A DNA stretch of 64,000 nucleotides from a virus. The stretch is taken from the IMG/VR virus record IMGVR_UViG_3300022074_000004; one strand, given 5' to 3'. Below the pieces are notes generated by a model that was not told where the DNA came from, made no database searches, and saw nothing but the letters and a program-made list of their open reading frames with translations. This document shows positions 5,415-24,200 of the stretch, piece after piece (within the stretch, counting starts at the first letter, position 1; the number at the start of each line of letters is the position of its first letter). The position numbers and the translations under genes were made by a program.

Positions 5415-5415
5415 T

Positions 5416-6389: not shown

Positions 6390-6520
6390 TACGCAGAACT
6401 TTTAGATTTTACTTTTTCAATGTTCTTGGGGAAGAATTTACCATTGCCGCCAAGTGTTTTGGTTCTGCGACGAAACAGCTTCCAGAGTGGTTTGTGGTTG
6501 ACCACTATCGTGTCAGTTAG
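6386..6520 (+). CDS. 44-aa hypothetical protein
   Basis: GTGA overlap with GGAGG RBS; 3' part of ORF 6278..6520. Confidence 0.55.
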   Translation: MIRRTFRFYFFNVLGEEFTIAAKCFGSATKQLPEWFVVDHYRVS

Positions 6521-6551
6521 TAGAATTTGATTGGTCATCATGAGTTGTTCC

Positions 6552-6579
6552 AGAGGGTCATTTCGACCCTCTTTTTTTT
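6552..6579 (+). terminator. rho-independent terminator
   Basis: AGAGGGTC-ATTTC-GACCCTCT + T-run. Confidence 0.9.
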
Positions 6580-6638
6580 GTTTGAGTTTCATCGAAAAAA
6601 ACAATGTGTGAGCAAAATTTGTTCTAAATAGCATTGGA

Positions 6639-6667
6639 TTGACACTTCATTGTTATTAAAGTATAAT
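6639..6667 (+). promoter_or_regulatory. consensus sigma70 promoter
   Basis: TTGACA-17 nt-TATAAT exact. Confidence 0.9.
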
Positions 6668-6695
6668 GTAAAAGTAACCACCACTCCTACAACTT

Positions 6696-6878
6696 ATGCC
6701 ATCAACTGCTTATCGCGCAAAAAAGTCAAAGTATAGAATTACGATAGAACTAGAGGCTTTGGATGATTTCTGCCCAACGAACATCGACTTCAACAAAGTA
6801 TTTTCTCTTCATGGAGCTGAGCGAGTGACATTCAGATATGTGGAGAATCTCTCCACTCCAGATCGCTACTCAGCTTGA
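6696..6878 (+). CDS. hypothetical protein
   Basis: 60-aa ORF directly after the consensus promoter. Confidence 0.75.
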   Translation: MPSTAYRAKKSKYRITIELEALDDFCPTNIDFNKVFSLHGAERVTFRYVENLSTPDRYSA

Positions 6879-7095
6879 TTGGTTTATCTCCTTTCACAAA
6901 CAAACCATAGCACAAAACAGTGCGGTGTGAACAGTCTCCCGCAAAAATGAGTATTCATTACTACCATTTTGGATTATATGTCTTGTGTTGCTAATTGTTG
7001 AGTTGCAATAAGGGCATATTAAGCTATATTTGCTTTGCAGTTCAAAAAGGATTTGCCACTGGGTAATTTTAGACACATCACATCGGTCGATAACT

Positions 7096-7125
7096 AAGGA
7101 GAGATATTTTATCTCTCCTTTTTTT
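7096..7125 (+). terminator. rho-independent terminator
   Basis: AAGGAGAGATA-TTT-TATCTCTCCTT + T-run. Confidence 0.85.
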
Positions 7126-7139
7126 GTGTTTATTTCATG

Positions 7140-7196
7140 TGGCACTTGCAGAACTGGCATAGATCAGGTCGTGGGGTCAAGAGCTGTGGGTATCAT
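7140..7196 (+). promoter_or_regulatory. palindrome-type promoter
   Basis: TGGCACTT-GCAG-AACTGGCA, then 31 nt to TATCAT. Confidence 0.75.
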
Positions 7197-7286
7197 GTGT
7201 GTGGGGACATAGATCCTGTCCTGATGGTGTTAGGGCTCGTTTCCTGACACCAAAAATACACAAAAAACCCTATTTAACACAAACAA

Positions 7287-7532
7287 ATGCGTAATTTTCA
7301 GAGTTTTGATGACTTTGTTGAGCTGATTGTTCCCTTTTCTATTGGTGCAGTGAGCTTTTCTCTGCTTGCTATTGCTTCTCAGCAGGCAATTTTTAACCAA
7401 AATGCAAAAGACAAGTGTGCTCTGGCCTCTACTCACCGTCTCGTAGTTGTCCAGAGCTTCTTCGGTGATGCCTATGGTTGCGTGAAGCTATTCCAATGGT
7501 ACAATCCAGAATCTGTCACTGACCGGGCTTGA
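7287..7532 (+). CDS. membrane-anchored hypothetical protein
   Basis: N-terminal hydrophobic helix, two Cys. Confidence 0.7.
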   Translation: MRNFQSFDDFVELIVPFSIGAVSFSLLAIASQQAIFNQNAKDKCALASTHRLVVVQSFFGDAYGCVKLFQWYNPESVTDRA

Positions 7533-7557
7533 CACTTATTTGCGATCACACTATTTT
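7499..7557 (+). promoter_or_regulatory. sigma70 promoter with upstream degenerate palindrome
   Basis: GTACAATC-CAGA-ATCTGTCA, TTGACA(7529)-17-TATTTT(7552). Confidence 0.65.
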
Positions 7558-7578
7558 CAGAAGCAAAACTAATTCAAA

Positions 7579-8022
7579 ATGCTAACTACAGAAAGACAAC
7601 TCACAAAACTTTCTCTTTCACAAAAGAATTGGAATAGAACTGATGAGTTGATGAAACATGCGTTTCGCCTTGCCCAACTCCTCAACAAGGACTACTACGA
7701 TCGCACAGGTAAGAAGGATTTGCAGTTTTATGTAGAGTTTCCGACCAAAGATTACATCAAAGTTATGGAGACTTATGATGGTAAAACTCAGGTCCATTGT
7801 CAAATTGACATTAAAACCAGTGAACTTAAAACTCCATCAAAAACGGCAGTAATTGCCAAGCTAATTGACTACGATCACACCGCGAGGTATTTTGTCCTGG
7901 ACTTGCATGAGCTTCTGCAACGCTGCGAGTTTACATCGAGATATTTGTTTTCTCAAGTACATAACAATCGCAGTCTTGGGAAACTAGCATACACCAGGCA
8001 CTTCAATTCAGAATTTAATTGA
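7579..8022 (+). CDS. hypothetical protein, probable paralog of 9278..9691
   Basis: KDYIKV...VHCQIDIKTSELKTPS motif. Confidence 0.75.
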   Translation: MLTTERQLTKLSLSQKNWNRTDELMKHAFRLAQLLNKDYYDRTGKKDLQFYVEFPTKDYIKVMETYDGKTQVHCQIDIKTSELKTPSKTAVIAKLIDYDHTARYFVLDLHELLQRCEFTSRYLFSQVHNNRSLGKLAYTRHFNSEFN

Positions 8023-8327
8023 TTATGACTTCTAAACTAAAGTTCACCCAATTTTCAGAATTACTTGATGAAATTAAATGTGATCCAGAAATGCAGCATC
8101 GCATTGATGAATTGGAAAATTTGCAATGCCACTTAAGCCAACAGGAAAAGTTTAAGACTGTTGTGCAAAGGTCTATTGATAAGCTAGAAGATGCAATCAC
8201 TGTAACTTATAGCGACATCGACACGAGTCTTCCGCCAGATGAAAGGGTTCGTAAACTGAGAAACATTGTTCCAGAAGTGCGGACAATGATGCTGGGGACC
8301 ATTGATGAGTTGAAAATCTTATTATGA
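8019..8327 (+). CDS. helical hypothetical protein
   Basis: 102-aa coupled ORF. Confidence 0.7.
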   Translation: MIMTSKLKFTQFSELLDEIKCDPEMQHRIDELENLQCHLSQQEKFKTVVQRSIDKLEDAITVTYSDIDTSLPPDERVRKLRNIVPEVRTMMLGTIDELKILL

Positions 8328-8557
8328 GCCGTAAAACTTCACATCTCAGTTACAAAAAATTACGTTCAATTTGGTTCACCTTTTACATGAAACTGCTTCT
8401 CATTGCTATTGTCTGTTTTTGGGGATGGAGCCATGACCCAACACGACAATTTGTTTCCGGTCTGCTCTATAAAGTTGCTGATGCAGTTGAGCCTGGAGCA
8501 CCAAAAACCAATTCACAAACTATTGGCGAACGAATTGATTCATTCATGGGAAACTGA
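8324..8557 (+). CDS. membrane-anchored hypothetical protein (start may be internal MKLLLIAIV)
   Basis: hydrophobic segment. Confidence 0.6.
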   Translation: MSRKTSHLSYKKLRSIWFTFYMKLLLIAIVCFWGWSHDPTRQFVSGLLYKVADAVEPGAPKTNSQTIGERIDSFMGN

Positions 8558-8647
8558 TGGCGTACACTACCATTTCGATTTTGAGCATTATCTTTTTGAT
8601 TAGTTTCATGAACTCACCACAAAACCGCACCATGTAATTTATTTACC

Positions 8648-8845
8648 ATGAAAATCAGCTATTTGGTTTCACTCTCCTATCGGGAGCGAGTGTTGTTGAC
8701 CCAGGCTATTGAAAACCATCAAATTAGGCTGGAGCAATATCAACAAAAAACAACAATCAAAAACGATGAGCGTCATGTTGTTCGCATCATGCAGCGTGAT
8801 CTTAAACAACTTGAAATGAAACTGTTAGCAAAGGCAGTTAATTGA
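8648..8845 (+). CDS. hypothetical protein
   Basis: 65-aa ORF. Confidence 0.7.
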   Translation: MKISYLVSLSYRERVLLTQAIENHQIRLEQYQQKTTIKNDERHVVRIMQRDLKQLEMKLLAKAVN

Positions 8846-8864
8846 TCGGCACAGCACAGCTCGC

Positions 8865-9281
8865 ATGGCAGCGAGACTGCGAGAATATAAGTGGGTTACA
8901 TCACTCGATCTGAGCGACTTCCCACTTTCATTCATGAGCAAACCAACCTGCAACTGGCATTTAACTCTCAACGAAAAGGGAGAAAGAGAAACAGTTTTAG
9001 AATTTAAGAGAAAGAAATATCAAAAAAGAAAAGATAGAGATGCCATATATTTTGTTGTACGAAGATATTTTAAGGAGAGTGAGAAAACTGGATATAATCG
9101 TATTGCCATCGAGACAGTTTTTATACACTATGATCGTGATCAGATCATCAATTTTATTAGAGGTCAAGACATTTCTACGGGCAAATATGTTGAGACTACA
9201 CAAGCGACAAAGCTACTAAATTTATATCAGGGATCTATGGTTCCTGACGGCAATGGTGGTTACGAAGAGGTGAAAGCGTGA
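8865..9281 (+). CDS. hypothetical protein (start probably internal MSKPT)
   Basis: 138-aa ORF, GTGA-coupled to the next ORF. Confidence 0.7.
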   Translation: MAARLREYKWVTSLDLSDFPLSFMSKPTCNWHLTLNEKGERETVLEFKRKKYQKRKDRDAIYFVVRRYFKESEKTGYNRIAIETVFIHYDRDQIINFIRGQDISTGKYVETTQATKLLNLYQGSMVPDGNGGYEEVKA

Positions 9282-9691
9282 TGACAGATCCAAAACAAGA
9301 ACGAAAAGTTTTGAACGATGTGCAGAAACTTGTCTGGAAAATTAACCAGACATGGGAAGATCAAGCTGTGGATAGTTGCTTCTCATTTCTCACCATCGAG
9401 GGAACAGATTCGCATTATCAAAAACGGTCAAAGTATCTGAAAATATGCAAAAAACAAGTCATAAATGGCAGAATGGGATTTGGCAGTATCACTTTTATGT
9501 TTATCAATAAGTTTAATGGTGAGGTGCATAAACCAGTATCAACGTCATCACCAACTCGCGATGTTCGTTACGAACTAAAAGAACTTGTAAAGAATCCAAA
9601 GACCATAGATCCTGAGGGCAATTTTTTGAGAATGTCATTTATACTAAAGGACGAGATAACAAATAGGGATCTCAACAAACTCATTCGTTAA
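9278..9691 (+). CDS. hypothetical protein, probable paralog of 7579..8022
   Basis: KYLKI...FMFINKFNGEVHKPVS motif. Confidence 0.75.
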   Translation: MMTDPKQERKVLNDVQKLVWKINQTWEDQAVDSCFSFLTIEGTDSHYQKRSKYLKICKKQVINGRMGFGSITFMFINKFNGEVHKPVSTSSPTRDVRYELKELVKNPKTIDPEGNFLRMSFILKDEITNRDLNKLIR

Positions 9692-9696
9692 TCATT

Positions 9697-9900
9697 ATGC
9701 AATTCCGTGTCACCAAAATCAACTTCGACTTTGAAGATGATAACTTTGAGATGTCTCCGATTGACCAACAACAAGTGATTAAGGAAACACTAGCTACAAC
9801 ATGGGAAGCGTGTGATGACGATGATCTCATCGAAGAAATTACATCAGTAACAGGTTGGTGTATCAATTCTATTGAATTTGTAAACTTCTCCGCTAATTAA
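9697..9900 (+). CDS. acidic hypothetical protein
   Basis: WEACDDDDLIEEITSVTGWCI. Confidence 0.75.
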   Translation: MQFRVTKINFDFEDDNFEMSPIDQQQVIKETLATTWEACDDDDLIEEITSVTGWCINSIEFVNFSAN

Positions 9901-9905
9901 ACAAG

Positions 9906-10010
9906 ATGACTTTCGAGGAATTGAAACTACTGATTCTACTGTTGTCACCGGCAATGCTCATGTCGGTATTATTACTGATAACGTTTGCTGCCGAGACCTA
10001 TGACAGCTGA
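9906..10010 (+). CDS. 34-aa single-helix membrane peptide (absent from ORF track)
   Basis: MTFEELKLLILLLSPAMLMSVLLLITFAAETYDS*. Confidence 0.6.
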   Translation: MTFEELKLLILLLSPAMLMSVLLLITFAAETYDS

Positions 10011-10056
10011 CAAAGTGGCACGGTTCAGCTCACAGATTTAAGAGCTGGATTATTAT
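10001..10056 (+). promoter_or_regulatory. palindrome-type promoter
   Basis: TGACAGCT-GACA-AAGTGGCA, then 30 nt to TATTAT. Confidence 0.7.
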
Positions 10057-10086
10057 GTCTTTATTCAACCAACCCCATTTATCATC

Positions 10087-10512
10087 ATGGGCACCAGAGC
10101 ACGCATTGCGTTCACTGATCGCAGCGCCAAAGTTTTCACATCTGCTTATCACCACTGGGATGGTTATCCCACCTGGCTTGGTGTTAAGCTGCAAGAACAT
10201 TACGGCAACCGAACTAGAGCCACAAAACTGGTCGCAGGGGGCGACATGTCATCATGTTGGACAAATAAAAGATGGCAAAAAAATGGTTGTGACATCGAAG
10301 TTCATGATTATGGCCCACAGTATTATGCAGATCGGGGAGAAAAGGCAGACGCTGAGATTTGTTTGGGGATGAACAAATTGCTTGAATTGTGTGAACAAGA
10401 TGGTGTAGAGTATTTGTATGTTTACAAGCCTTATTCTGGGTGGAAGTGTTACAACACCAGGCAATATGATAAAAACTATGGTCAAATTGAACCTCTCCCC
10501 ACTGTGTCATGA
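10087..10512 (+). CDS. conserved phage hypothetical protein
   Basis: MGTRARI...YHHWDGYP...EYLYVY pattern. Confidence 0.85.
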   Translation: MGTRARIAFTDRSAKVFTSAYHHWDGYPTWLGVKLQEHYGNRTRATKLVAGGDMSSCWTNKRWQKNGCDIEVHDYGPQYYADRGEKADAEICLGMNKLLELCEQDGVEYLYVYKPYSGWKCYNTRQYDKNYGQIEPLPTVS

Positions 10513-10805
10513 TTGCAATCAGGAATCCCAACACTTATCAAGCCTTGAAGAGTTTAATTGTCCTTTATTATGAGGCTAGTAATGAATATGAACAGTTAAA
10601 TAGTTTGTCTACTCAATTATTAACTGTCAAAAAATTTTCAATTACTGAGTTTTCAAAAGTTTTAAGGGAGAAAGACAATAAACATCGACAAGTTATTCAA
10701 CACTTGTGCAATCTCACATTGCATCCAAGTTTTATTGAATTGACAGCACACGAACAGAATCAAATTCTCGATTTGTTCAATCAACCAGTACATCAACCAA
10801 CCTAA
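10509..10805 (+). CDS. hypothetical protein
   Basis: 98-aa coupled ORF. Confidence 0.65.
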   Translation: MIAIRNPNTYQALKSLIVLYYEASNEYEQLNSLSTQLLTVKKFSITEFSKVLREKDNKHRQVIQHLCNLTLHPSFIELTAHEQNQILDLFNQPVHQPT

Positions 10806-10806
10806 A

Positions 10807-11046
10807 ATGAAAACATTTATTCTTCTCTCATCACTGCTGTTTGCTGCCAACCCAGCATCTGCACATCTCCTCCGCCATCATCACCATCATCACTATCCTA
10901 AAATTAAAACACATAAACATTATCATACTCACTACAAAACTGGCGTAACCCACTTCCACAAGCACAAGCACGGTGGTGGTCATGGTCATCATGGAACAAA
11001 ATCTCGCCACAGTGTTCCAACTTGGTTGCACATTCATTTTCACTAA
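10807..11046 (+). CDS. secreted histidine-rich protein
   Basis: signal peptide MKTFILLSSLLFAANPASA; 22 His in the remaining 60 aa. Confidence 0.75.
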   Translation: MKTFILLSSLLFAANPASAHLLRHHHHHHYPKIKTHKHYHTHYKTGVTHFHKHKHGGGHGHHGTKSRHSVPTWLHIHFH

Positions 11047-11054
11047 AATATAAA

Positions 11055-11210
11055 ATGGATCATCTTGAAATGCTGTCTAAACGTGAACAACTCATGGAGG
11101 ACATTGATTGCATCATCGAATCAAATTTTGGTGAGGTTGAGTATAAGGACGATGTAATTCGCCAACTCTGTGGTGCTGTCTGCAAAAACTTTCCCACTCC
11201 TACTAACTGA
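11055..11210 (+). CDS. hypothetical protein
   Basis: MDHLEMLSKREQLMEDIDCII...LCGAVCKNFP within ORF 11022..11210. Confidence 0.7.
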   Translation: MDHLEMLSKREQLMEDIDCIIESNFGEVEYKDDVIRQLCGAVCKNFPTPTN

Positions 11211-11215
11211 AACTC

Positions 11216-11365
11216 ATGGAATTTAAGGTCACTCTCACTCACAAGGACAACTCCGACCAATACAAGTTTTTGGTCGTTGAAGATTGTAAAGACAGAGATG
11301 AATTGATTGACCACATTTGGGAGACCGAACCAGATTGGGCCATTCATGCTATTGATCTAGTATGA
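11216..11365 (+). CDS. 49-aa hypothetical protein (absent from ORF track)
   Basis: MEFKVTLTHK...HAIDLV*; fills the gap. Confidence 0.6.
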   Translation: MEFKVTLTHKDNSDQYKFLVVEDCKDRDELIDHIWETEPDWAIHAIDLV

Positions 11366-11367
11366 GT

Positions 11368-11425
11368 GGACAGTTGATTAAAGTGTCCTCTTACAGGTCC
11401 CAGGGTCACGATCTCTGATTATTAT
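11368..11425 (+). promoter_or_regulatory. palindrome-type promoter
   Basis: GGACAGTT-GATTA-AAGTGTCC (5-nt spacer variant), then 31 nt to TATTAT. Confidence 0.75.
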
Positions 11426-11448
11426 TCAGTTGTTCAGCCATTTCACTT

Positions 11449-11706
11449 ATGCAACTTCTAAACGAACGCAACAATGTTGTTGTTGATTTTTATCCATTAA
11501 AGGATTGGAACAACAACACGATCGAAAACAAAATGTTGAAAGTTGTCACCTTGAATGGTAAAACTTTCTTGAAAAGAATCGTGGATGAAGAGCGGTACGA
11601 TGGTGAAGTCATCAACCGTAAACGCAAATTTGGTTTTATTCAAACTGACATGCACATTGCACGCCAGTATTACTCTGAGCATCTGAGCACATTCATTCTC
11701 AACTGA
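11449..11706 (+). CDS. hypothetical protein
   Basis: 85-aa ORF after the promoter. Confidence 0.75.
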   Translation: MQLLNERNNVVVDFYPLKDWNNNTIENKMLKVVTLNGKTFLKRIVDEERYDGEVINRKRKFGFIQTDMHIARQYYSEHLSTFILN

Positions 11707-11728
11707 AAACTTTTCATTTAACAAAATC

Positions 11729-11896
11729 ATGGCTACCTACAAAGTTCATTGTTCCCAACTCGGTGAGACAGAGTATCACACATCTGAAGAACGTGCTGTT
11801 GATGTATGTTTCAGTATGCACAATGAAAGTGGCGGATATGCTTATGTTGAAGACTTTTATGGTCATAAAATCTACGAGTATGGTGAATTAAAATAA
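11729..11896 (+). CDS. 55-aa hypothetical protein (absent from ORF track)
   Basis: MATYKVHCSQLGE...YEYGELK*. Confidence 0.65.
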   Translation: MATYKVHCSQLGETEYHTSEERAVDVCFSMHNESGGYAYVEDFYGHKIYEYGELK

Positions 11897-11935
11897 ACTA
11901 TTGTCATCTTCACCTTCACCTTCGCGGACATTATC

Positions 11936-12361
11936 ATGCCAAACTGGTGTCACAACAGAGTTGTAATCTCTCACATGGAAGCTCAGCCAATTAAAGAGTT
12001 GGCTGACATTTTCCAAAAAGATCAGCCATTTGCTACACTTGTCCCTCAACCTGATTGGGAGAATACGCCAAACGATAAAGGAGAATTGCCTGTTGTTAGT
12101 GATCTGGGCTTAGAATTTGATGGTAAACAAGATTTGCGCTGGTATGATTGGCGGCTTGATAATTGGGGATGCAAGTGGGATTTGAATGAGGGAGATGTTA
12201 CGGTGAAGTTATCAGAAGATAAAACTATTTTGCAGATGTGGTTTGAAACTCCGTGGGGGCCACCGGATAAGATTAAAGAACACATTGATAACATGAATGA
12301 TGGTTTCGAGATCGAGTGGCACTGGGATGAGCCAGGGATGGGATCAGCAGGTTATCTTTAA
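11936..12361 (+). CDS. DUF1281/YubB ferredoxin-like fold protein
   Basis: MPNWC-N, WYDWRLDNWGCKWD, FETPWGPP, WDEPG motifs. Confidence 0.8.
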   Translation: MPNWCHNRVVISHMEAQPIKELADIFQKDQPFATLVPQPDWENTPNDKGELPVVSDLGLEFDGKQDLRWYDWRLDNWGCKWDLNEGDVTVKLSEDKTILQMWFETPWGPPDKIKEHIDNMNDGFEIEWHWDEPGMGSAGYL

Positions 12362-12394
12362 CTTTAATCTTTTTCATTCATTCATTTCAATTCA

Positions 12395-12583
12395 ATGGCA
12401 CACGCTACAGCACTTAAAATCAACAAAAAATCTTTTTCAAATGGAGAAGATTATCACGTTGGAATGAAAGGATTAGATTTAATGATTACACATATGCCAG
12501 GGTGGACAATAAAAACAGAAATCGTCTCGGACGAGCATGGACACCTGGGCCTGCATGTATGGCACGAGAAGATCCAATCCTGA
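12395..12583 (+). CDS. hypothetical protein
   Basis: 62-aa ORF. Confidence 0.65.
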   Translation: MAHATALKINKKSFSNGEDYHVGMKGLDLMITHMPGWTIKTEIVSDEHGHLGLHVWHEKIQS

Positions 12584-12628
12584 AACTGTCCTAGCAGAGG
12601 TCGCAGGGTCGTGACCTGAGCTTAAATT
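12572..12628 (+). promoter_or_regulatory. palindrome-type promoter
   Basis: ATCCAATC-CTGA-AACTGTCC, then 31 nt to TAAATT. Confidence 0.7.
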
Positions 12629-12652
12629 GGGTTCAATCAACACCGGAAACCA

Positions 12653-13102
12653 ATGCCGACACCAATCAGCACCATGAGCCGTCGCCAGTTCGACGAATAC
12701 AACATTTGGATCGATAAGCTGGATCATATTTGGCACATTTCAAGAGAGGATTATAGGCAGTTGGCTATCATCAACAACGCCCTCATCAGTTGGACTGAGA
12801 GAGAAGTCAATGGTGAGATTTATCGTGATGAAGATACCAATAAATGTTATCGACGTGTTCGTGATTCAAAAACTGGTAAAATCATTGGAGAGTATCGTAT
12901 CAACGATCGTGAAACTGGTTTATATAAAAAAGCAACTGCTATTGCTAATCGTAACCAGGGTTGGATTTATTTTCAGGGAGATTGTCGTGGTTGCATGATT
13001 TACTTTTATCGGACAGCAATGTGTGGTGGCCCTTATGTTATCGGTCCTGATGATAACATTGCTAGCTGCTATTCTACACAAGCACTTGCTTGTCACTTCT
13101 AA
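12653..13102 (+). CDS. hypothetical protein
   Basis: 149 aa; YFQGDCRGC motif. Confidence 0.8.
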   Translation: MPTPISTMSRRQFDEYNIWIDKLDHIWHISREDYRQLAIINNALISWTEREVNGEIYRDEDTNKCYRRVRDSKTGKIIGEYRINDRETGLYKKATAIANRNQGWIYFQGDCRGCMIYFYRTAMCGGPYVIGPDDNIASCYSTQALACHF

Positions 13103-13122
13103 ACTTTTAAGGAATTAAAATT

Positions 13123-13407
13123 ATGAATTACACACTCAAAGAACTTCAGCAACGTGTCAACAAAATGATCGAACAACAGGGGGAAGATGCACATTGTGCT
13201 GCCTGGATTTACACAAAGGAAGATTGTCATTTGAAGGATGAAAATGGTGAGGTTGATTATGATAATGTTGTAGAAGATCCTGATGTTGTTGAGCGTATCT
13301 TCGATGATGTTGGCAACATTGATCACATTTACACTGTAATTCAAGAGTGTGTAGATGAAGTTACAGAAGAGCAAGTTAAGTTACAGCAACAGGAGGCAAA
13401 GTCATGA
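13123..13407 (+). CDS. acidic hypothetical protein
   Basis: AAGGA RBS; 94 aa. Confidence 0.8.
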   Translation: MNYTLKELQQRVNKMIEQQGEDAHCAAWIYTKEDCHLKDENGEVDYDNVVEDPDVVERIFDDVGNIDHIYTVIQECVDEVTEEQVKLQQQEAKS

Positions 13408-13619
13408 CACAAGTTACAACAACTGAAACTCGAATTGCAATCTACGAGGTGCGAAATGTCTTCGGTGAAGATAAGGCGTACCCAGTCAATGATGTTGCCG
13501 AGGCTTTCTGTGATCTGACAAATACAAAAACATTATTGTCTCGTCATAAAAGTGTGATCGAAAGTCTTGGTTATACAGTGAAGTTTGTTTCACCATCAAT
13601 CGAAAACTTTAACTGTTGA
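13404..13619 (+). CDS. hypothetical protein
   Basis: GGAGG RBS, ATGA coupling; VFGEDKAYPV...LTNTKTL. Confidence 0.8.
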   Translation: MTQVTTTETRIAIYEVRNVFGEDKAYPVNDVAEAFCDLTNTKTLLSRHKSVIESLGYTVKFVSPSIENFNC

Positions 13620-13628
13620 GAATCTGAT

Positions 13629-13696
13629 AGCCAATTCTGAGACTGTCTACTCTCAGGGTTGAAAGGCTTGCAGGGTCATCATCCCAGAGCTAGCAT
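13629..13696 (+). promoter_or_regulatory. palindrome-type promoter (one helical turn longer)
   Basis: AGCCAATT-CTGA-GACTGTCT, then 42 nt to TAGCAT. Confidence 0.55.
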
Positions 13697-13701
13697 TAGA
13701 G

Positions 13702-13806
13702 TATAACACACACAGAGAGGTTGATCACCTATGACTGGGTCTCCCCCGAAGACCCACCACACACACGGAAGAGTATTAGGAGAGGCTTGAGAACCTCTCC
13801 TTTTTT
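13702..13806 (+). ncRNA. candidate ~105-nt small RNA (or 19-aa peptide transcript)
   Basis: own promoter, two hairpins, two ACACAC tracts, strong terminator. Confidence 0.5.
13778..13806 (+). terminator. rho-independent terminator
   Basis: AGGAGAGG-CTTGAGAA-CCTCTCCT + T-run. Confidence 0.9.
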
Positions 13807-14297
13807 ATGTCATCTTCATTGATTCTTTACCTGTTAATGTTTTCACCTTCACTAGCATCATCTTCACTCTCATTGTCATCTTCATTATCATCATTTTGAG
13901 CATTATTGCCTACAAAATAGCATAAAAACACATTAAAAATACATTTATAAATATACTTTCGTTTTTTATTCAAATGCACTCCCGATACGCCCAGCAGTGC
14001 CTCCAGAGCATCTCAACAGCATCTAAAACACTAAATCATACTCTATATGTGTCATCTTCACAATCATCATCACATATACACATACATATGTCATCTTCGC
14101 TATCATCATCATATTCATAATTTTTATCTTTATCTTTATACCTGTGGAATGCAGCTGTGGAATTGTGGAATAAATCTTTTATCATAAACTTTTTCTCTCA
14201 ATAGTATATGATTGTAAATTTTATGATTTATATTTTATTAGAAAAACATTTGATTTTTATTTCTCATAAACGTTTCATAATGCTCTGATAATGCTCC
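13807..14297. other. long non-coding AT-rich tract, candidate origin region
   Basis: no ORF of 60 aa or more on either strand; G-poor + strand; GTCATCTTC copies; TGTGGAAT x3. Confidence 0.45.
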
Positions 14298-14321
14298 GGG
14301 GTCTTGTGATCTTAGCCTGCG

Positions 14322-14350
14322 AGCTTAGCACCGACCGCCCGTTTTGTCAA
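14322..14350 (-). promoter_or_regulatory. leftward sigma70 promoter inside an inverted repeat
   Basis: minus strand TTGACA-17-TAAGCT; flanked by GGGGTCTTG/CAAGACCCC. Confidence 0.6.
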
Positions 14351-14448
14351 GACCCCCGCCATAAAAATTCACAAGGTCTCGGTTTTCAAACAATCCGCAT
14401 ACCTCCGAGTTTTATGGTATAATAAGCAAAAAAACACTATAAGGCAGT

Positions 14449-14491
14449 GGACGGTTTATGAAGTGGTACAGTGCCAGTTTTTTATGTGTCT
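14449..14491. promoter_or_regulatory. tandem palindrome pair 1
   Basis: GGACGGTT-TATG-AAGTGGTA-cag-TGCCAGTT-TTTT-ATGTGTCT. Confidence 0.7.
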
Positions 14492-14584
14492 TTGTAACAA
14501 TGTAAAGATTCATAAAATGGTAGTGAGTGACACAGCGCCACGGGCCACGGTGGGCTAGAGTAAGAATAGAGCCTTATGAGGGGT

Positions 14585-14627
14585 GGACAGTTTATGAAGT
14601 GGCACTGTGACACTTTGAGAACTGGCT
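14585..14627. promoter_or_regulatory. tandem palindrome pair 2
   Basis: GGACAGTT-TATG-AAGTGGCA-ctg-TGACACTT-TGAG-AACTGGCT. Confidence 0.8.
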
Positions 14628-14651
14628 GATTGTTACAGTTTGATATAATTA

Positions 14652-14717
14652 TTTTATGGCAGGAGTAGTGGCGATTATTGTTGTCATCGAGGTTACCCCA
14701 CCTCTCGTTTGATTTGA
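14652..14717. ncRNA. structured element E1 (functional strand unresolved)
   Basis: ungapped homology to E2 and E3 with covarying hairpins. Confidence 0.6.
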
Positions 14718-14721
14718 TCAT

Positions 14722-14815
14722 AGTATAGCAGCTCTCAGGGGTCTCTCAGGGCATCCGTGGACACTTATTGGACTGGCACAATAGAGGTAGCGGTGCCGCG
14801 ATCTGAGGTTATTCT
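14722..14815. promoter_or_regulatory. divergent promoter pair sharing one palindrome
   Basis: GGACACTT-ATTG-GACTGGCA (14759-14778) with TATACT on - and TATTCT on +, each exactly 31 nt away. Confidence 0.75.
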
Positions 14816-14838
14816 TTTATCAGTAACGTTCTTCCCCC

Positions 14839-15045
14839 ATGAGCTACGAAGTGTTTCACCGGACTTGGTGGCGGCGCAATGATGAGTGGCCTGATGGCCG
14901 GGAGCCCGGTTGCGGCCGTGCTTACCACATCGGCTGGGCTGCTGACGAAGCCGAAGCCAGTGCTATGTGTAAGGAGTGGAACAGCAAGCATAAGCCCGGG
15001 CTGTTTTCTGACAGAGCAGAGTACAGCGAGGGCCGGTTCACATAA
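14839..15045 (+). CDS. hypothetical protein
   Basis: YEVFHRTWW...WPDGREP; follows the promoter. Confidence 0.75.
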   Translation: MSYEVFHRTWWRRNDEWPDGREPGCGRAYHIGWAADEAEASAMCKEWNSKHKPGLFSDRAEYSEGRFT

Positions 15046-15084
15046 GCACTAAACTTTAACAGTATTTTTTTCCCCTTTTAAGTT

Positions 15085-15348
15085 ATGAACACTGAAACGT
15101 ATGACCTGCCCGCTCACTGGGCAAGCTATCTTATCAACGGCGATGCAACGTCATTCAGCCTGAATGATGATGGCGGAGACGCTGAGATCGCATTGATTGA
15201 TGAGGTTATGTCGAACATTGACCAGAAAGGAAACGCCATCATTGATGTTGATGCAGAAGAAAGTTTCTTCAAAAAGTATCACGATGCTCACATGTATGGC
15301 GTAATGGCTGGTACTTGCCTAACGTATAAGCTGACGTGGATTGACTGA
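15085..15348 (+). CDS. acidic hypothetical protein
   Basis: LPAHWASYLINGD motif. Confidence 0.8.
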   Translation: MNTETYDLPAHWASYLINGDATSFSLNDDGGDAEIALIDEVMSNIDQKGNAIIDVDAEESFFKKYHDAHMYGVMAGTCLTYKLTWID

Positions 15349-15412
15349 TCATAAACTTTAACGTTATTCTTTTTACCTTCCGCATCATAAGTCACCTTGG
15401 CGGTCATCATCG

Positions 15413-15469
15413 GGCCACCTGACACACTGGCACAACAGAGCTTGTGACCTTGAGAGCTGCGGCTATTCT
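15413..15469 (+). promoter_or_regulatory. palindrome-type promoter
   Basis: GGCCACCT-GACA-CACTGGCA, then 31 nt to TATTCT. Confidence 0.7.
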
Positions 15470-15500
15470 TTAGTTGTCAACGTTTTTCCCCTTCTGAGCC

Positions 15501-15749
15501 ATGACCACCACCGTCGTCAAGCACTGCTTCTATAAGGTCGAGATTGACACTAAAGACTCTGTGATCCCCATCATCTACTTTCGTAAGGTGAGACGCTGTA
15601 CCACTGCTAAGGGCATGGATCGTCAGCACAATCGCATCGTTAACGAGACTGTGGAGGCATGGCGTCCTTTTGACCGTCAGATCACGCGCTACACTGTTTC
15701 TCGTGTGCCAGCTGACGTAGTGGTCAAGGGTGAGATCCGCAACGCCTGA
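15501..15749 (+). CDS. basic hypothetical protein
   Basis: 82-aa ORF after the promoter. Confidence 0.75.
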   Translation: MTTTVVKHCFYKVEIDTKDSVIPIIYFRKVRRCTTAKGMDRQHNRIVNETVEAWRPFDRQITRYTVSRVPADVVVKGEIRNA

Positions 15750-15814
15750 TCGGCTCCCACTATGCTAGGATATGGTCAGTCAAAGGGGGCACCGCCTATG
15801 GCCTGATTCGCTAC

Positions 15815-15877
15815 AACCTAACGAGAGGCGATGTAGCCTCGCAGACGACAAAGGTCGCCACTGCCCCTGTAACAAAA
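15815..15877. ncRNA. structured element E2 (inverted relative to E1 and E3)
   Basis: reverse complement matches E1 at 46/63 positions ungapped. Confidence 0.6.
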
Positions 15878-15893
15878 TATAATTATGTAACAT

Positions 15894-15936
15894 AACCACA
15901 TATAAAAGTGTCACAGTGCCACTTCATAAACTGTCA
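15894..15936. promoter_or_regulatory. tandem palindrome pair 3
   Basis: AACCACAT-ATAA-AAGTGTCA-cag-TGCCACTT-CATA-AACTGTCA; largely an inverted copy of pair 2. Confidence 0.8.
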
Positions 15937-15951
15937 CATATCTTATAGGTA

Positions 15952-16017
15952 TTTTATGGCAGGAGAGCTTACGAACTTTATCGTCTACAGGGCGACCCAG
16001 CCCCTCCTCTGATTTGA
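15952..16017. ncRNA. structured element E3
   Basis: matches E1 at 45/66 positions ungapped, with two compensatory pairs. Confidence 0.6.
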
Positions 16018-16179
16018 ACCAATCATATCAGACCCAGCTGCGCTGTCTGTATCGTGTGATACCATTTTGGAAATATGTCGAAATGTGAATTTTCAAACGT
16101 TTCCCACTAGCGTTTCGCTCTCGGTGTCGTAACCTATTGGCAAGCGGGCGCACTGAAGCCCGCGCAACCCCAAAGGACT

Positions 16180-17313
16180 ATGAACAGCTCAGCTCAAGCT
16201 AAGGCTCTCGAAAGCCTTCTGGCTCTTGATACCGGTCGCGCCGATCGCCCGGACGGCTTCCGCATGTCCGCAGCGGATCACAAGCTTTTCCGTGGATACG
16301 CTCGTGTTGTTGAGCCCGGCATGACCGACAGCGACATCCTGATGCACGCTGGTGCTGGCTTCAACGTTGAGACGCAGCCGGTGAGTTTTAAACTGCCCAG
16401 CGGTAGCTACTGCTCAACCCCTGACAGCATCGTGTGGTCTCGGGATGATCGGGACGATGAGACGGCTTTTCTGGGTACGTTCGGCAACCGTCGCGCCGTG
16501 ATCCAGCCTAGCGACTTCCTTTCCTACTTCCAACGCTTCGTACAACAGTCTGGCAAGCGTATCTCCCTAGATGTTGTGGGAACGCTTGACAATGGAAAGC
16601 AATTCTTTATGGGCTCGAAACTTACAGAAAATAACATCGAAGCTATTCTTGACAATCCTGAGCACCAACACGTTGGAATGCGTGTTAATGAGTTCTTCAA
16701 ACAAGAGGATCTATCGGACTATTGGTTAGTCGTTACCGATTTTTATGGCACTAGCAGAGCACCACAGGTGAATCTTTTGTGCAATCGCTTAGTCTGCACC
16801 AACGGAATGACTCGTCAAGTTAAAACTAAGTTGGCAGCATTAACACACCGCAAGGATCTAACCGGCGATAGTGTTGTTGAAGTATTGAACCAAGGGATTC
16901 GTGAGGCTTCAAACTATTGTAAGATCCAGGATTTGCTGACTGAAATGGAACTAACTCCAGAACAATTCAATAACGGTATTAAGAAGTTCTGCCGGGTTAA
17001 AACAGGAACTTTGGACACTGATCTTCCTTCCAAAGTAAAGGGTTTCCGGGAAACGTATCACGCTACAGATAAAGGTAAGATCGTAGGAATCGAGACTTAT
17101 AAGACATCTACAGGTACAGATAACGCCTGGAGAGCACTGAATGCAGTGACACAATATATCACCCACAAGCCATTAAAGAACCAAGACGCTGCATTGCGTT
17201 CATCAATCAATGGCACTCGTGCTAAAGAACCGAACGCTTATTTGCAGTTCCTGGCTGATAACCACGGGACGCCAGATCAGCAGGCTGAGTTGAGAGAACT
17301 CATCGCAGTCTGA
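16180..17313 (+). CDS. DUF932/DUF945-like phage/plasmid protein
   Basis: GTLDNGKQFF, RLVCTNGM, LTH, NAWRALNAVTQYITH motifs; AAGGA RBS. Confidence 0.75.
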   Translation: MNSSAQAKALESLLALDTGRADRPDGFRMSAADHKLFRGYARVVEPGMTDSDILMHAGAGFNVETQPVSFKLPSGSYCSTPDSIVWSRDDRDDETAFLGTFGNRRAVIQPSDFLSYFQRFVQQSGKRISLDVVGTLDNGKQFFMGSKLTENNIEAILDNPEHQHVGMRVNEFFKQEDLSDYWLVVTDFYGTSRAPQVNLLCNRLVCTNGMTRQVKTKLAALTHRKDLTGDSVVEVLNQGIREASNYCKIQDLLTEMELTPEQFNNGIKKFCRVKTGTLDTDLPSKVKGFRETYHATDKGKIVGIETYKTSTGTDNAWRALNAVTQYITHKPLKNQDAALRSSINGTRAKEPNAYLQFLADNHGTPDQQAELRELIAV

Positions 17314-21242: not shown

Positions 21243-24200
21243 ATGTCCGAAAGAATTCAGGTCAGTCAGGTTTTAAAAAGTCAGATCCCAAACTATGTTC
21301 GTGAAGAATATCCACAGTTTGAGAAATTTTTACAGCAATATTATATTGGACAGGAATATCCTGGTGGACCTATTGATTTGATAGAAAATATTGACAAGTA
21401 TGTTAAGATTGATTCACTATCAAATATAAATGATTCTGCTGTTTTGGCAACAGACATTTCATTTTCGAGTAGAATTATTAGAGTAGACTCGTCATTATCC
21501 CCACAAGGAACATCTGGATTTCCAGATTCTTACGGCCTACTTAAGATTGGTGATGAAGTCATCACATATAAGAACAAAACTGAGTTTTCATTTACTGGAT
21601 GTATTAGAGGATTTAGTGGAGTAACTAATTACAGAAATGAAGATAACTTGGGAGAGTTGACTTTTGAGAGTACTAAGATTGAAAAGCATAAGTCTGGTGC
21701 AACTATCCATAATCTGAGTGCTCTTTTCTTAAAGGAAATGTTTACGAAATTGAAGTATCAATTTCTTCCTGGATTGGAGAATAAAAAATTTGCTGGTTCT
21801 GTTGATGAGAACCTGTTTCTTCAGAAGAGTAGAGATTTTTATTCTGTTAAGGGAACACGTACAGGATTTGATCTGCTGTTTAAATTATTATACGGAGAAG
21901 AAATTGATATCATAAGTCCCAAGAACTATCTTTTTACTCCATCAAATTCAGACTTTGAAAAGTATGATGAGATGGTATTGGAAATCATTTCAGGAAATCC
22001 GGAAGATTTACTTTTATCTACACTTAGTCAAGAAGAGTATAAGGATATTATTGAAGAAGCATATGCTCCAATCACTGATGTTGAAAAACTTGATGATCCA
22101 GATAGTGATGGGAAGTATTATAAAGTCAAATTAGATTCCGGCTCTGGGGTAAATAGGGACAGTGGAGTTAAGGGCTCTATATCAGGAAGCTTTACAGTAC
22201 ACGCAAAAACTAGAGTTATAGGTGATGTTGAAATAGGAGCATCAATTATAACAGTTGATTCAACTGTAGGGTTCTCAAATGAAGGAGAACTGTATGTAAG
22301 GTATGCAGATCAGACATTTGGAGTTGTTTCATATACATCAAAATCATTCAATCAGTTCTTTGGTTGTTCAAATATAATCAATAATATCTTGGATGGATAT
22401 GGCGTTAGTGTTAACACCTTTGCATATGCTACTTCTGGTGATAATATCGTAAAAGTTAGAGTAAATTCTATACCATCTAGCGTTCAGTATAGCGATGATA
22501 GTTATGGATATCATAAAAATCTTCCCGTAACATTTAAAAATTTAGGCTATACTAGCGATTCTTACAAAAGTGATGGGTGGTTATACAATACTGGACCATG
22601 TTATGATATAAACAGAACTAATTTGATCGATACATCAGATAACACGTATGAAATTGAGCTGAAAACTAAGAATTATTTGCAAATTGACGACTCTGTTAAC
22701 ATCATATCTAGCAATCAGTCTAAAAAATTCGCCAGTGTTATTGATTTAATATCAGAAAATACCATATTGGTTCGCTGTGAGGGGCCAATTTTAGAAAATG
22801 ATCTGAAAGTAGAGAGGAATATCTTAAAATCTGAAGGGTCCATCATCACAAATGTGCAAAATGTCTATAAACACAACACTGAAGAGGAGTATTTGATTGC
22901 TTCGTCATCAATTCCTTCACTTTTGGACGAAAATAATGCAAAAAAAGTTACATTTTCAGGAACTTTCCTCCAAAATCAAGAAATATTGAAAATAAGTGAG
23001 TTCAAAGACCATGGATTTTACACTGGAGATGCGATTTTTTACAAACCAGAAGTAGAAATTCAAATCATTGAGGATGCTGACGAAAATGAAGAAGGTTTTA
23101 CTGAGACTGAGGTGATAAAATCTTCATTATTTGATGAAGGTCTATATTTTATCAAAAGAATATCACCAACTGAAGTTAAATTTGCGTTAAGTTTGTCAAA
23201 TATTGAAAAATCTCAATATATTTCTCCAAAAATTAACACAATTGTTGAAAATAATACTTTAGAGCCATATAAATTTAAAGGAAAAGAAATTAGAAGCCAA
23301 AATTTAGTCAGAAAACTAAAAAATCCGCAAAAAACTTCTGAAAAATCAAAAACAATTCCAGGATTTACTGGAATTATGATAAATGGAACAGAAATTTTAA
23401 ATTATAAGTCATCTGATAGAGTAAAATATGGAAAAATTGAAAAAATTGATGTAATTTCTAAAGGATATGATTACGATGTCATAAATCCACCAAATTTGAC
23501 TATTTCTGATAGTTCTGGACAAGGTGCAGAGGCATATGTTGACGTTTCTGGAGTTTTGCAAGAGCTTAGAATTGTAGATTCTGGATTTGACTATCAAAAA
23601 CCACCTATTTTGACAATAACAGGGGGAAATGGAGAAGGTGCAGAGGTTTCTCCAACAATGTCCGGAATAATTCATTCTGTAGAATTCAATTCTCTATCAA
23701 TTTCAACAGTTGATGACACAATTAAATTTACAGTAAATCATAAATTGAAAACTGGAGAAAGTGTTGTCTATAAAACTAACAATCAACAGTCAATTGGTGG
23801 TATTGTTGATGGATCCGAGTATTTCGTATCTGTAGTTGATAGTAAAACTATTTCTTTACATGAAACACAAAGTGATTCTGTTTCTGCAGCTAATAAAATT
23901 AGTTTTACTTCTCTTGGGGTTGGAAATCATATTATTGAGGCCACTGAAACCAAAAGTGTTGTGGCATCACTCAATGTAGTAAATTCTGGGTTAAATTATC
24001 AAAATAAAAAGAGAATATTGAAAGAAGAAAATATAAATTTACAAAAAGATTGTTTTTATATTAAAAATCATAGGTATGAATCTGGAGAACTCATAAAATA
24101 TTACTCAACAACTGGAACAGCCATAGGTGGACTAGAAATTGGCAAGGAATATGTAGTAACAAAGATAAGTGACGATGAATTTAGCATTTCTCAAGTTGGG

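What the first reader, a model, noticed from the sequence alone, without database searches (positions are those of the whole stretch)
15706..16085. Mirror-symmetric cassette: promoter > E2 > double palindrome < E3 < promoter
Seen: a rightward extended -10 (TGCTAGGAT, 15763-15771) and a leftward one (TGATATGAT on the minus strand, 16022-16030) face each other. Each reads through a structured element into an AT-rich centre holding palindrome pair 3, with no ORF and no U-tract terminator in between. Established: T4 oriF/oriG are promoter-plus-unwinding-element origins primed by R-loops that UvsW later removes, and uvsW is in this window. Inference: a candidate bidirectional RNA-primed origin, or a convergent sRNA pair.
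Basis: inference. Interest (0 to 1): 0.72.

Follow-up and report, generated by a model that had tools for sequence, protein, structure and literature searches.

The report
Inverted pair of cyanophage non-coding cassettes
The mirror-symmetric stretch is two head-to-head copies of a conserved ~93-base non-coding unit that T4-like cyanophages place between small early genes; it most likely yields short regulatory RNAs and marks points where genes get swapped, and is probably not a replication origin.

Summary
Both -10 boxes, both structured elements and the AT-rich palindromic centre are at the stated coordinates.

E2 (15795-15886, minus) and E3 (15943-16034, plus) are inverted copies of one ~93-nt unit. 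A third copy lies at 14643-14734. A covariance model finds the unit in cultured Kyanoviridae (B3, six copies; DSL-LC03, one) and in dozens of viral and metagenome contigs, up to 11 copies in 8.3 kb. A pattern scan of 185,579 prokaryotic species genomes gave only chance hits.

Its core is a 5-bp hairpin with compensatory changes. The closing pair fits only the strand read against gene flow (35/35 versus 13/35). In about 18 of 42 distinct copies a -10 box reads into the unit from a 20-bp dyad exactly 31 nt away. No peptide frame is conserved.

Two related lineages keep the mirror pair with all four -10 boxes, while the genes between units are replaced.

Best reading: short non-coding RNAs bracketed by face-to-face promoters, at boundaries of swappable gene cassettes (PeSL-like). 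Transcription is inferred, not shown.

This scan had already noted the same family on other DNA (e1-5340299).

The parts
15706..15725 (.). Weak copy of the 20-bp dyad (TGCCAGCTGACGTAGTGGTC, 2 mismatches), 40 nt before the rightward -10. It lies inside the 3' end of the 82-aa gene.
   Evidence: Sequence. It falls below the 1-mismatch search. I found no dyad-like sequence at the matching place in L044.
15763..15771 (+). It faces into unit E2.
   Evidence: Conserved as TGCTAAGAT in L044 and TGCTAGGAT in L113, 20-22 nt beyond the unit end.
15795..15886 (-). Unit E2: one copy of the ~93-nt conserved non-coding unit, inverted relative to the flanking genes.
   Evidence: cmsearch with model R1: 74.4 bits, E 3.7e-17. 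Orthologues in L044 and L113.
15825..15840 (.). E2 hairpin: GAGGC / GATGTA / GCCTC on the + strand.
   Evidence: Compensatory changes against the L044 orthologue (GGTG...CACC) and across the family.
15882..15887 (-). Outward (leftward) -10-like CATAAT at the head of E2, 29 nt from the far dyad.
   Evidence: The same hexamer at the same 29-nt spacing occurs in L044 and L113.
15894..15936 (.). AT-rich centre with two 20-bp dyads (15894-15913, degenerate; 15917-15936, perfect TGCCACTTCATAAACTGTCA). Their junction forms the palindrome at 15906-15924.
   Evidence: Conserved in L044 with changes only at the free (N) positions. A 31-nt stretch is identical, in inverted orientation, to 14586-14616.
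15943..16034 (+). Unit E3: second copy of the unit, in the family's usual orientation relative to the genes. Its head carries a -10-like TATAGG at 15943-15948.
   Evidence: cmsearch 76.8 bits, E 8.7e-18. In L113 and L044 the head -10 is TATGAT or CATAAT, 30-32 nt from the far dyad.
15989..16004 (.). E3 hairpin: AGGGC / GACCCA / GCCCC. The closing A.C becomes G.U on the minus strand.
   Evidence: The L044 orthologue has GTGC...GCAC, a compensatory change.
16022..16030 (-). It is the conserved tail -10 of the unit family.
   Evidence: Homologous position reads TATAAT, TGCTAGAAT, TACAAT or TATACT in most family members; TATAAT in L044 and TATGAT in L113.
16049..16062 (.). GTA-N8-TAC (NtcA-type) palindrome, 21 nt upstream of the leftward TATGAT.
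   Evidence: Sequence. Not present in L044 or L113 at the matching place, so it may be chance.
14585..14778 (+). Paralogous unit A (14643-14734). Double dyads at 14585-14604 and 14608-14627. Head -10 TGATATAAT at 14641-14649. Hairpin at 14689-14704. Tail -10 TGCTATACT on the minus strand at 14722-14730. Dyad at 14759-14778, with -10 boxes 31-32 nt away on both sides.
   Evidence: cmsearch 91.6 bits.

Best explanation
The cassette is a head-to-head inverted pair of a conserved, phage-specific, multi-copy non-coding unit of T4-like cyanophages (Kyanoviridae).

**Usual layout of the unit.** It sits between the terminator of one small early gene and the dyad-controlled promoter of the next. It consists of an AT-rich head (TAT..GCAGG), about 30 nt of conserved sequence, a 5-bp hairpin with a conserved 6-nt loop, and a tail carrying a -10 box.

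**Likely transcription (inferred).** The tail -10 box lies 31 nt from a palindromic 20-bp dyad, which has a second -10 box 30-32 nt away on its other side. The dyad therefore looks like a two-way promoter. One arm would drive the next gene. The other would drive a short RNA through the unit, against the gene flow.

**This phage lineage.** The upstream terminator is replaced by a pair of dyads, which also carry outward -10 boxes. Each unit is thus bracketed by face-to-face promoters. In the finding, two units share one pair of dyads, so two unit RNAs would converge on the centre.

**Shown:** homology of the copies, copy numbers, hairpin covariation, strand asymmetry of the closing pair, fixed spacings, absence of a coding frame, and replacement of the genes between conserved units.

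**Inferred:** that the -10 boxes fire, that the product is a short regulatory or antisense RNA, and that the dyad binds a dimeric factor. What the RNA does is unknown. My best guess is control or insulation of neighbouring early-gene cassettes by antisense pairing or promoter interference. Separately, the units appear to serve as recombination points for gene swapping.
For: **Family membership and spread**
- E2 and E3 are copies of one unit, with a third copy at 14643-14734.
- Related units occur in phage DSL-LC03 (1 copy), B3 (6), viral contig G002 (11 in 8.3 kb) and G001/G003 (1 each). The metagenome loci added 47 more cmsearch matches, some of them duplicates of the same phages.
- All 12 viral hits to a 20-nt pattern were true homologues. 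All 10 hits in 185,579 prokaryotic species genomes were chance matches.

**Hairpin**
- All four inner pairs show compensatory changes. The covariation score is 0.47 against 0.21 in shuffles (0 of 500 reach it) and below 0.21 when partners are slid.
- The closing pair is A.C in 22 and G-C in 13 of the 35 distinct copies. It is therefore a valid pair in 35/35 only on the strand opposite the genes (overall 164/174 versus 144/174 cells paired).

**Promoter geometry**
- The tail -10 reads TATAAT, TGCTAGAAT, TACAAT or TATACT on that same strand.
- In about 18 of 42 distinct copies, from several lineages, it is 31 nt (range 29-32) from a dyad that has another -10 box 30-32 nt away on its far side.
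- By eye, at least 21 of 42 copies follow a terminator hairpin plus T-run.
- The dyad pattern is enriched in the window (16 matches against 4.4 expected); 13 of the 16 lie in the first 16 kb.

**Conservation of the mirror pair**
- The pair, with all four -10 boxes, is conserved in L044/L053 and L113.
- The ORFs between units are unrelated between the window and L044, and partly differ between L044 and L113.

**Not coding**
- The start codon, stop codon and reading frame of the 18-aa ORFs are not conserved. Copies differ by 1-nt indels, and B3 has an in-frame stop.
Against: - There are no transcript data for any family member, so every promoter is a sequence inference.
- The strand call rests mainly on one base pair. 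The other four pairs are strand-neutral.
- The hairpin is only 4-5 bp. Single-sequence folds are not clearly better than shuffles (z from 0 to -2.3), and no other helix covaries.
- In the finding itself, neither inward -10 box has a good dyad at 31 nt. The left one has a 2-mismatch dyad at 40 nt; the right one has none.
- E2 is inverted relative to the family norm, and its own tail hexamer has decayed.
- No terminator is evident for the inward RNAs.
- The outward head promoters are also conserved. The functional transcripts could therefore run out of the centre, with E3 serving as the leader of the DUF932 gene.
Confidence: 0.6

Rival explanations
1. Plain promoter/terminator cassettes (PeSL-type) with no RNA product of their own. 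The head -10 boxes next to the dyads would fire outward. E3 would be the promoter and 5' leader of the DUF932 gene, and unit A an upstream promoter of the 14839 operon. The small hairpin would be an attenuator or a protein site in the leader, and E2 an inverted by-product of recombination between units.
For: - Units are co-oriented with genes in this sense in most cases: 9 of 11 in G002, 6 of 6 in B3, 2 of 3 here.
- They follow terminator hairpins.
- Head -10 boxes are perfect extended -10s in unit A (TGATATAAT) and DSL-LC03 (TGTTATAAT).
- In the window lineage they lie 29-32 nt, or 39 nt for unit A, from a dyad in all three lineages.
- A few copies have a T-run after the hairpin, and the scan flags 14689-14704 as terminator-like.
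- Genes between units are swapped, as with PeSLs (PMC4122927).
Against: - By my reading of the aligned heads, the head -10 boxes are poor in many members, for example the G002 copies and the L045 type.
- The ORF at 14839 already has its own dyad promoter (TATTCT at 14811-14816), so unit A is not needed as its promoter.
- The closing-pair asymmetry favours the other strand.
- The fixed 31-nt spacing between tail -10 and dyad is unexplained if the tail is not a promoter.
- About 60 nt of conserved leader is more than a promoter plus terminator needs.
Confidence: 0.22
2. Bidirectional RNA-primed replication origin. Convergent transcripts would enter the AT-rich centre, form R-loops and prime DNA synthesis, as at T4 oriF/oriG.
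For: - Two conserved inward -10 boxes face an AT-rich centre.
- RNA read in this direction contains a G-run (GAGAGGYGGGG) followed by an A/U-rich stretch. By general knowledge, that composition favours RNA-DNA hybrids.
- uvsW is present in the window.
Against: - The same unit occurs up to 11 times in 8.3 kb and usually singly, not as a mirror pair.
- The centre is built from conserved dyads and -10 boxes that also occur at ordinary early promoters.
- The conserved feature is a covarying hairpin, not an unwinding element.
- I saw no T4-type MotA box before either -10 box.
- Cumulative GC skew has no turning point at the cassette; its local minima are near 14.4 and 17.45 kb.
Confidence: 0.06
3. 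Small-peptide genes or a type I toxin-antitoxin-like pair. The 18-aa ORFs starting at 14656 (MAGVVAIIVVIEVTPPLV) and 15956 (MAGELTNFIVYRATQPLL) would be translated and controlled by the antisense RNA.
For: - Two ORFs of equal length start at the conserved ATGGCAGGAG. One is hydrophobic.
- Face-to-face promoters resemble type I toxin-antitoxin layouts.
Against: - The ATG is replaced by ATT, TTG or TAG in most relatives.
- E2 has no start codon.
- B3 has an in-frame TGA, and L045 lacks the stop.
- Six of 20 aligned copies differ by 1-nt indels inside the frame.
Confidence: 0.03
4. A mobile element. Unit A and E2 would be terminal inverted repeats (about 125 nt, with a 31-nt perfect core) of a composite element carrying the three ORFs at 14839-15749.
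For: - Inverted repeats at 14586-14714 and 15815-15935 flank three GC-rich ORFs.
- The cargo differs between lineages.
Against: - There is no transposase or integrase, and I saw no target-site duplication at the flanks.
- Unit copies within a genome are old paralogues. Each is closer to its orthologue in L044 or L113 than to its neighbours.
- Most family members are single and flanked by a terminator and a dyad promoter.
Confidence: 0.04

Closest known systems
PeSLs (promoter-early stem-loops) of T4-type phages RB49/phi1, PST/T4 and nt-1/KVP40 (Arbiol et al. 2010, PMC2839356; Comeau et al. 2014, PMC4122927)
   Same: - Multi-copy composite regulatory units in the hyperplastic regions of T4-like genomes.
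- They combine stem-loops with -10-type promoters.
- They sit next to small ORFs that differ between close relatives.
   Different: - A PeSL is a terminator stem-loop followed directly by a sigma-70 promoter with -35 and -10 boxes. Here about 90 nt of conserved non-coding sequence with its own small covarying hairpin lies between the terminator and the gene promoter.
- These promoters lack a -35 box and use a 20-bp dyad 31 nt from the -10.
- The best-conserved promoter points against the gene flow.
- Copies are only about 65-80% alike.
Antisense small-RNA cassettes of lake-water T4-like cyanophages, noted earlier in this scan (e1-5340299; phages B3 and B23)
   Same: Apparently the same family. 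My model finds six copies in phage B3. I reached the same orientation, against the gene flow, independently.
   Different: That note describes single units after small early genes. Here two units are fused head to head on a shared pair of dyads, and each unit also has an outward promoter.
T4 oriF / oriG (promoter plus downstream unwinding element, R-loop primed); from general knowledge
   Same: A promoter-like site reads into an AT-rich stretch, in a T4-like phage that encodes UvsW.
   Different: - T4 origins are few and use MotA-dependent middle promoters.
- This unit is highly repeated.
- Its AT-rich part consists of protein-site-like dyads and -10 boxes.
- Its conserved core is an RNA-type hairpin.
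Genome-wide antisense RNAs of cyanophage P-SSP7, reported to protect mRNA from host RNase E (Stazic, Lindell and Steglich 2011, NAR 39:4890). I saw this only as a reference listed in PMC6191309 and did not read it.
   Same: Phage-encoded transcripts running antisense to phage genes in infected picocyanobacteria.
   Different: That is a T7-like podovirus, and no repeated promoter-plus-hairpin unit is known to me from it. Any functional link is speculative.
Face-to-face promoter pairs of temperate coliphages (for example 186 pR/pL); from general knowledge
   Same: Two promoters 60-100 nt apart fire toward each other across a short conserved segment.
   Different: Those are single developmental switches in temperate phages. 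Here the layout is repeated at many gene boundaries of a lytic T4-like phage.

Membership tests
PeSL (promoter-early stem-loop) cassettes | Composite of a terminator stem-loop followed directly by a sigma-70-type early promoter | tested here: inconclusive
   At least 21 of 42 family members have a terminator hairpin plus T-run just upstream of the unit head. About 150 nt of unit plus dyad then separate it from the gene's -10 box, and there is no -35 box. The copies in the finding have dyads in place of a terminator.
PeSL (promoter-early stem-loop) cassettes | Many copies concentrated in hyperplastic regions | tested here: met
   3 copies within 1.4 kb here; 11 in 8.3 kb of G002; 6 in 6.6 kb of B3. 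All lie among small ORFs of unknown function.
PeSL (promoter-early stem-loop) cassettes | Copies mark the endpoints of gene replacements between close relatives | tested here: met
   Window versus L044: the flanking genes are conserved (60-94% aa identity), the units are conserved, and none of the ORFs compared between units has a counterpart. L113 versus L044 differ in part.
PeSL (promoter-early stem-loop) cassettes | Recombination between copies (mini-circles, deletions) | not testable with these tools
   This needs PCR or sequencing of phage DNA. The only hint is a 31-nt perfect match between units A and E2 within about 74% background identity.
T4 oriF/oriG-type origin | MotA-dependent middle promoter (MotA box near -30) giving the primer RNA | tested here: not met
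   By eye, no (a/t)(a/t)TGCTT(t/c)A about 30 nt before either -10 box. By general knowledge, cyanophages lack MotA; I did not test that here.
T4 oriF/oriG-type origin | One or a few sites per genome | tested here: not met
   The constituent unit is present 3, 6 and 11 times in short stretches of different phages. The mirror arrangement itself occurs once per contig examined.
T4 oriF/oriG-type origin | Origin activity (R-loop, nascent strands, marker-frequency peak) | not testable with these tools
   Experimental only.
Curated RNA families (Rfam 15) | Match at the family's gathering score | tested here: not met
   No match in the whole window at gathering thresholds. In 13500-16300 there were only two chance-level hits, at E 2.7 and 4.
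Type I toxin-antitoxin / small peptide gene | Conserved small ORF with start, stop and frame kept across relatives | tested here: not met
   Start codon absent in most copies, stop codon not conserved, 1-nt indels inside the frame.
Cyanophage antisense small-RNA cassette family (scan note e1-5340299) | Conserved unit with a covarying mini-hairpin, present in B3/B23, oriented against the gene flow | tested here: met
   Model R1 hits B3 six times. Hairpin covariation. Strand asymmetry and tail promoter geometry. Transcription itself is untested.

The most novel reading that the evidence does not exclude
The unit RNAs could form an RNA-based 'punctuation' system for early transcription in T4-like cyanophages, which lack MotA/AsiA and whose hosts lack Rho (both from general knowledge). 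Each gene cassette would carry a dyad-driven antisense RNA whose conserved hairpin (loop GGGGUA on that strand) recruits a dedicated host or phage protein. That protein would end, process or time the neighbouring messages. The mirror pair would then be a two-way stop or switch between two cassettes.
Probability: 0.15. Interest if true: 0.7.

Novelty: new variant of a known kind. Interest (0 to 1): 0.5.

Why it matters
Little is known about how T4-like cyanophages control early genes, and they lack the T4 middle-mode factors.

This unit is conserved, phage-specific and multi-copy. It has a covarying hairpin and is wired to a palindromic site with fixed 31-nt spacing. It therefore gives a concrete handle that can be tested in cultured phages (B3, B23, DSL-LC03).

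It also extends the idea of swapping genes at repeated regulatory cassettes, known from PeSLs of enterobacterial and vibrio T4-like phages, to cyanophages in a different form.

For the question actually asked, the result is sobering: the attractive origin reading has little support.

Tried and rejected
- **My first reading was purely divergent transcription out of the centre**. I revised it after the strand asymmetry of the closing pair and the fixed tail -10 to dyad spacing.
- **Peptide coding by the 18-aa ORFs:** rejected.
- **A conserved ORF on the + strand across E2** (36 aa, 15772-15882): rejected, because frame-shifting indels occur in L044.
- **Extra RNA helices.** I checked a GGCGA/TCGTC stem, pairing of the 5' end with the hairpin loop, and the long-range helix GGGGGCA...TGCCCC of E2. 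By inspection none is kept across the family, and RNAalifold predicts only the hairpin.
- **tRNA and Rfam searches:** nothing.
- **The central palindrome as a search pattern in viral contigs:** it returned only unrelated palindromes.
- **Host origin of the unit:** the pattern scan of prokaryotic genomes gave chance hits only, none in cyanobacteria.
- **Mimicry of a host CRISPR repeat:** considered and dropped for the same reason.
- **The NtcA-type site at 16049-16062:** present, but not conserved in L044 or L113.
- **Single-sequence folding:** uninformative.
- **Doron et al. 2016,** the Syn9 transcriptome paper said to describe the early-gene element, is not held in the library. I therefore could not check the proposed link between the dyad and that element. 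I also could not check the link to the host CGRE1/PlmA site, because PMC6191309 gives the motif only as a figure.
- **DNA search of cultured phages:** the nearest relatives of the cassette's flanking genes share only about 80% identity over the 82-aa gene.

Full report
**Setting**

The window comes from an uncultured T4-like cyanomyovirus.
- It encodes gp25 and gp6 baseplate proteins, portal gp20, capsid gp23, large terminase, tail sheath and UvsW.
- Its DNA matches only Kyanoviridae, and only over short stretches.
- All long ORFs are on the + strand.
- The finding lies in the small-gene region upstream of the baseplate module. It sits between an 82-aa gene (15501-15749, phrog_5495) and a 377-aa DUF932 gene (16180-17313).

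**The observation**

The key point is that the two 'structured elements' are homologous. E2 (15795-15886, minus strand) and E3 (15943-16034, plus strand) are inverted copies of one ~93-nt unit, and a third copy (A) lies at 14643-14734.

The centre holds two copies of a 20-bp dyad, TGnCAS-N8-STGnCA. This pattern is enriched in the window (16 matches against 4.4 expected), and 13 of the 16 lie in the first 16 kb.

**The unit is a family**

- BLAST first found the unit's core in unannotated intergenic DNA of the cultured phages DSL-LC03, B3 and B23.
- A 20-nt degenerate pattern taken from the hairpin hit 12 viral contigs, all true homologues. It hit 48 metagenome stretches, in which the model then found 47 unit copies. 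Its 10 hits among 185,579 prokaryotic species genomes were all chance matches, none in cyanobacteria.
- A covariance model built from 20 copies finds 3 copies here, 4 in L044, 6 in B3, 11 within 8.3 kb of contig G002, and 1 each in DSL-LC03, G001 and G003.
- Rfam has no match.

**What is conserved**

- GCAGG is invariant, a TAT triplet in the head is nearly so, and GTGnCGA is well conserved.
- There is a small hairpin with a conserved loop. All four inner pairs show compensatory changes: A-U 13 / G-C 11; G-C 22 / U-A 3; G-C 23 / C-G 4; C-G 15 / U-A 6.
- The covariation score is 0.47, against 0.21 in shuffles (0 of 500 reach it) and below 0.21 for slid partners.
- No other helix is supported.
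- The 18-aa ORFs that start in two of the window's copies are not conserved in start codon, stop codon or frame.

**Which strand**

Three observations point to the strand opposite the flanking genes.
1. The fifth, closing pair is A.C in 22 and G-C in 13 of the 35 distinct copies. It is therefore a valid pair (G.U or G-C) in 35/35 only on the opposite strand. Over all five pairs, 164 of 174 cells are paired on that strand against 144 of 174 on the other.
2. The tail of the unit, read on that strand, is a good -10 box (TATAAT, TGCTAGAAT, TACAAT or TATACT) in most copies.
3. In about 18 of 42 distinct copies, from several lineages, this -10 box lies 31 nt (range 29-32) from a 20-bp dyad. On its far side the dyad has another -10 box at 30-32 nt, in front of the next gene.

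Many copies also follow the terminator hairpin and T-run of the upstream gene.

The usual module is therefore: terminator, unit, tail -10, 31 nt, dyad, about 31 nt, -10, next gene. The dyad looks like a two-way promoter, one arm of which reads back through the unit.

I reached the orientation before reading it.

**This lineage and the mirror pair**

- The window is 99% identical to metagenome contig L080. L044/L053 and L113 represent two further lineages. In all three, a pair of dyads replaces the terminator at the unit head.
- The heads carry outward -10-like boxes at conserved distances from the far dyad: CATAAT at 29 nt for E2 in all three lineages; TATAGG, TATGAT or CATAAT at 29-32 nt for E3; and TGATATAAT at 39 nt for unit A.
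- Each unit is thus bracketed by face-to-face promoter-like sites 60-100 nt apart. The finding is two such units sharing one pair of dyads.

**Genes are swapped around the units**

- Between the window and L044, the outer genes are conserved (60-94% aa identity) and the units are conserved in place. None of the ORFs compared between units has a counterpart in the other phage.
- L113 and L044 share some of these ORFs and differ in others.
- The inserted ORFs in the window are GC-rich (up to 64%) compared with roughly 40% GC in the sequence around them.
- This is the signature described for PeSL cassettes of other T4-like phages. A study of cyanophage S-PM2 found little sign of PeSLs there.

**Interpretation**

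- The most likely reading is a pair of conserved non-coding transcription units. They probably give short RNAs that converge on the shared dyads, and they sit at the boundaries of swappable early-gene cassettes.
- The origin reading has little support. The unit is far too repeated. It normally occurs singly between a terminator and a promoter. Its AT-rich part is made of motifs that also occur at ordinary early promoters.
- The weak points are plain. There are no transcript data. The strand call rests mostly on one base pair. The hairpin is small. In the finding itself, the inward -10 boxes lack a good dyad at 31 nt.
- What the RNA does is unknown.

Noticed in passing
window 1956-15936 (for example 7140, 10001, 11368, 12572, 14759, 15413, 15917): A 20-bp dyad, TGnCAS-N8-STGnCA, is enriched (16 matches against 4.4 expected), and 13 of the 16 lie in the first 16 kb. 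In relatives it has -10 boxes about 31 nt away on both sides, so it looks like the operator of a -35-less, two-way early promoter class. Another scan note links it to the host PlmA/CGRE1 site; I could not verify that.
   Followed up: partly
window 14283-14392 (minus strand): A further structured element: TTTTATGGCGGGGG followed by a long hairpin, GGGGGTCTTG...CAAGACCCC. It is conserved at 81-82% in L044, L053 and L113. Its head and tail resemble the unit family, but model R1 does not detect it. It may be a diverged member.
   Followed up: partly
window 14143-14170; L043 (phage S-H35) about 2815-2910: The motif CTGTGGAA(T) occurs three times in tandem in the window. It recurs several times in an intergenic region of phage S-H35, which also shares the dyad module GTGGACACTT-N6-ACTGGCACAAT (window 14757-14785).
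   Followed up: no
window 14811-14838, 15050-15084, 15352-15379, 15464-15500: The small ORFs at 14839, 15085 and 15501 share a leader of the form TATTCT..TAACGTT..TTTTTCCCC just before the ATG. It has no Shine-Dalgarno-like purine run. One extra copy, at 15352-15379, has no ORF after it.
   Followed up: no
window 14839-15045, 15501-15749, 16180-16500: These ORFs have 57-64% GC, against roughly 40% in the sequence around them. The 82-aa gene is about 80% identical in DNA to genes of S-CAM4, ACG-2014e/j, S-RIM44 and Syn1. This suggests recent lateral spread among cyanophages.
   Followed up: partly
window 16049-16062: A perfect NtcA-type GTA-N8-TAC site lies 21 nt from the leftward TATGAT. It is not conserved in L044 or L113.
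   Followed up: partly
window 13843-14139: Degenerate direct repeats of TCATCTTCA-type 9-15-mers lie in a stretch with no long ORF. The syntenic place in L044 encodes an 89-aa histidine-rich protein with a signal-peptide-like start.
   Followed up: no
window 21243-33062 and 38431-45132: Two giant ORFs of 3939 and 2233 aa lie within the baseplate and tail region.
   Followed up: no
L021/L023 (IMG/VR contigs), about 11620-11650: The half-motif GGGACAGTTTATGAAGTGGAAC follows a hairpin in an unrelated AT-rich viral contig. This suggests the dyad half-site is used beyond this lineage.
   Followed up: no
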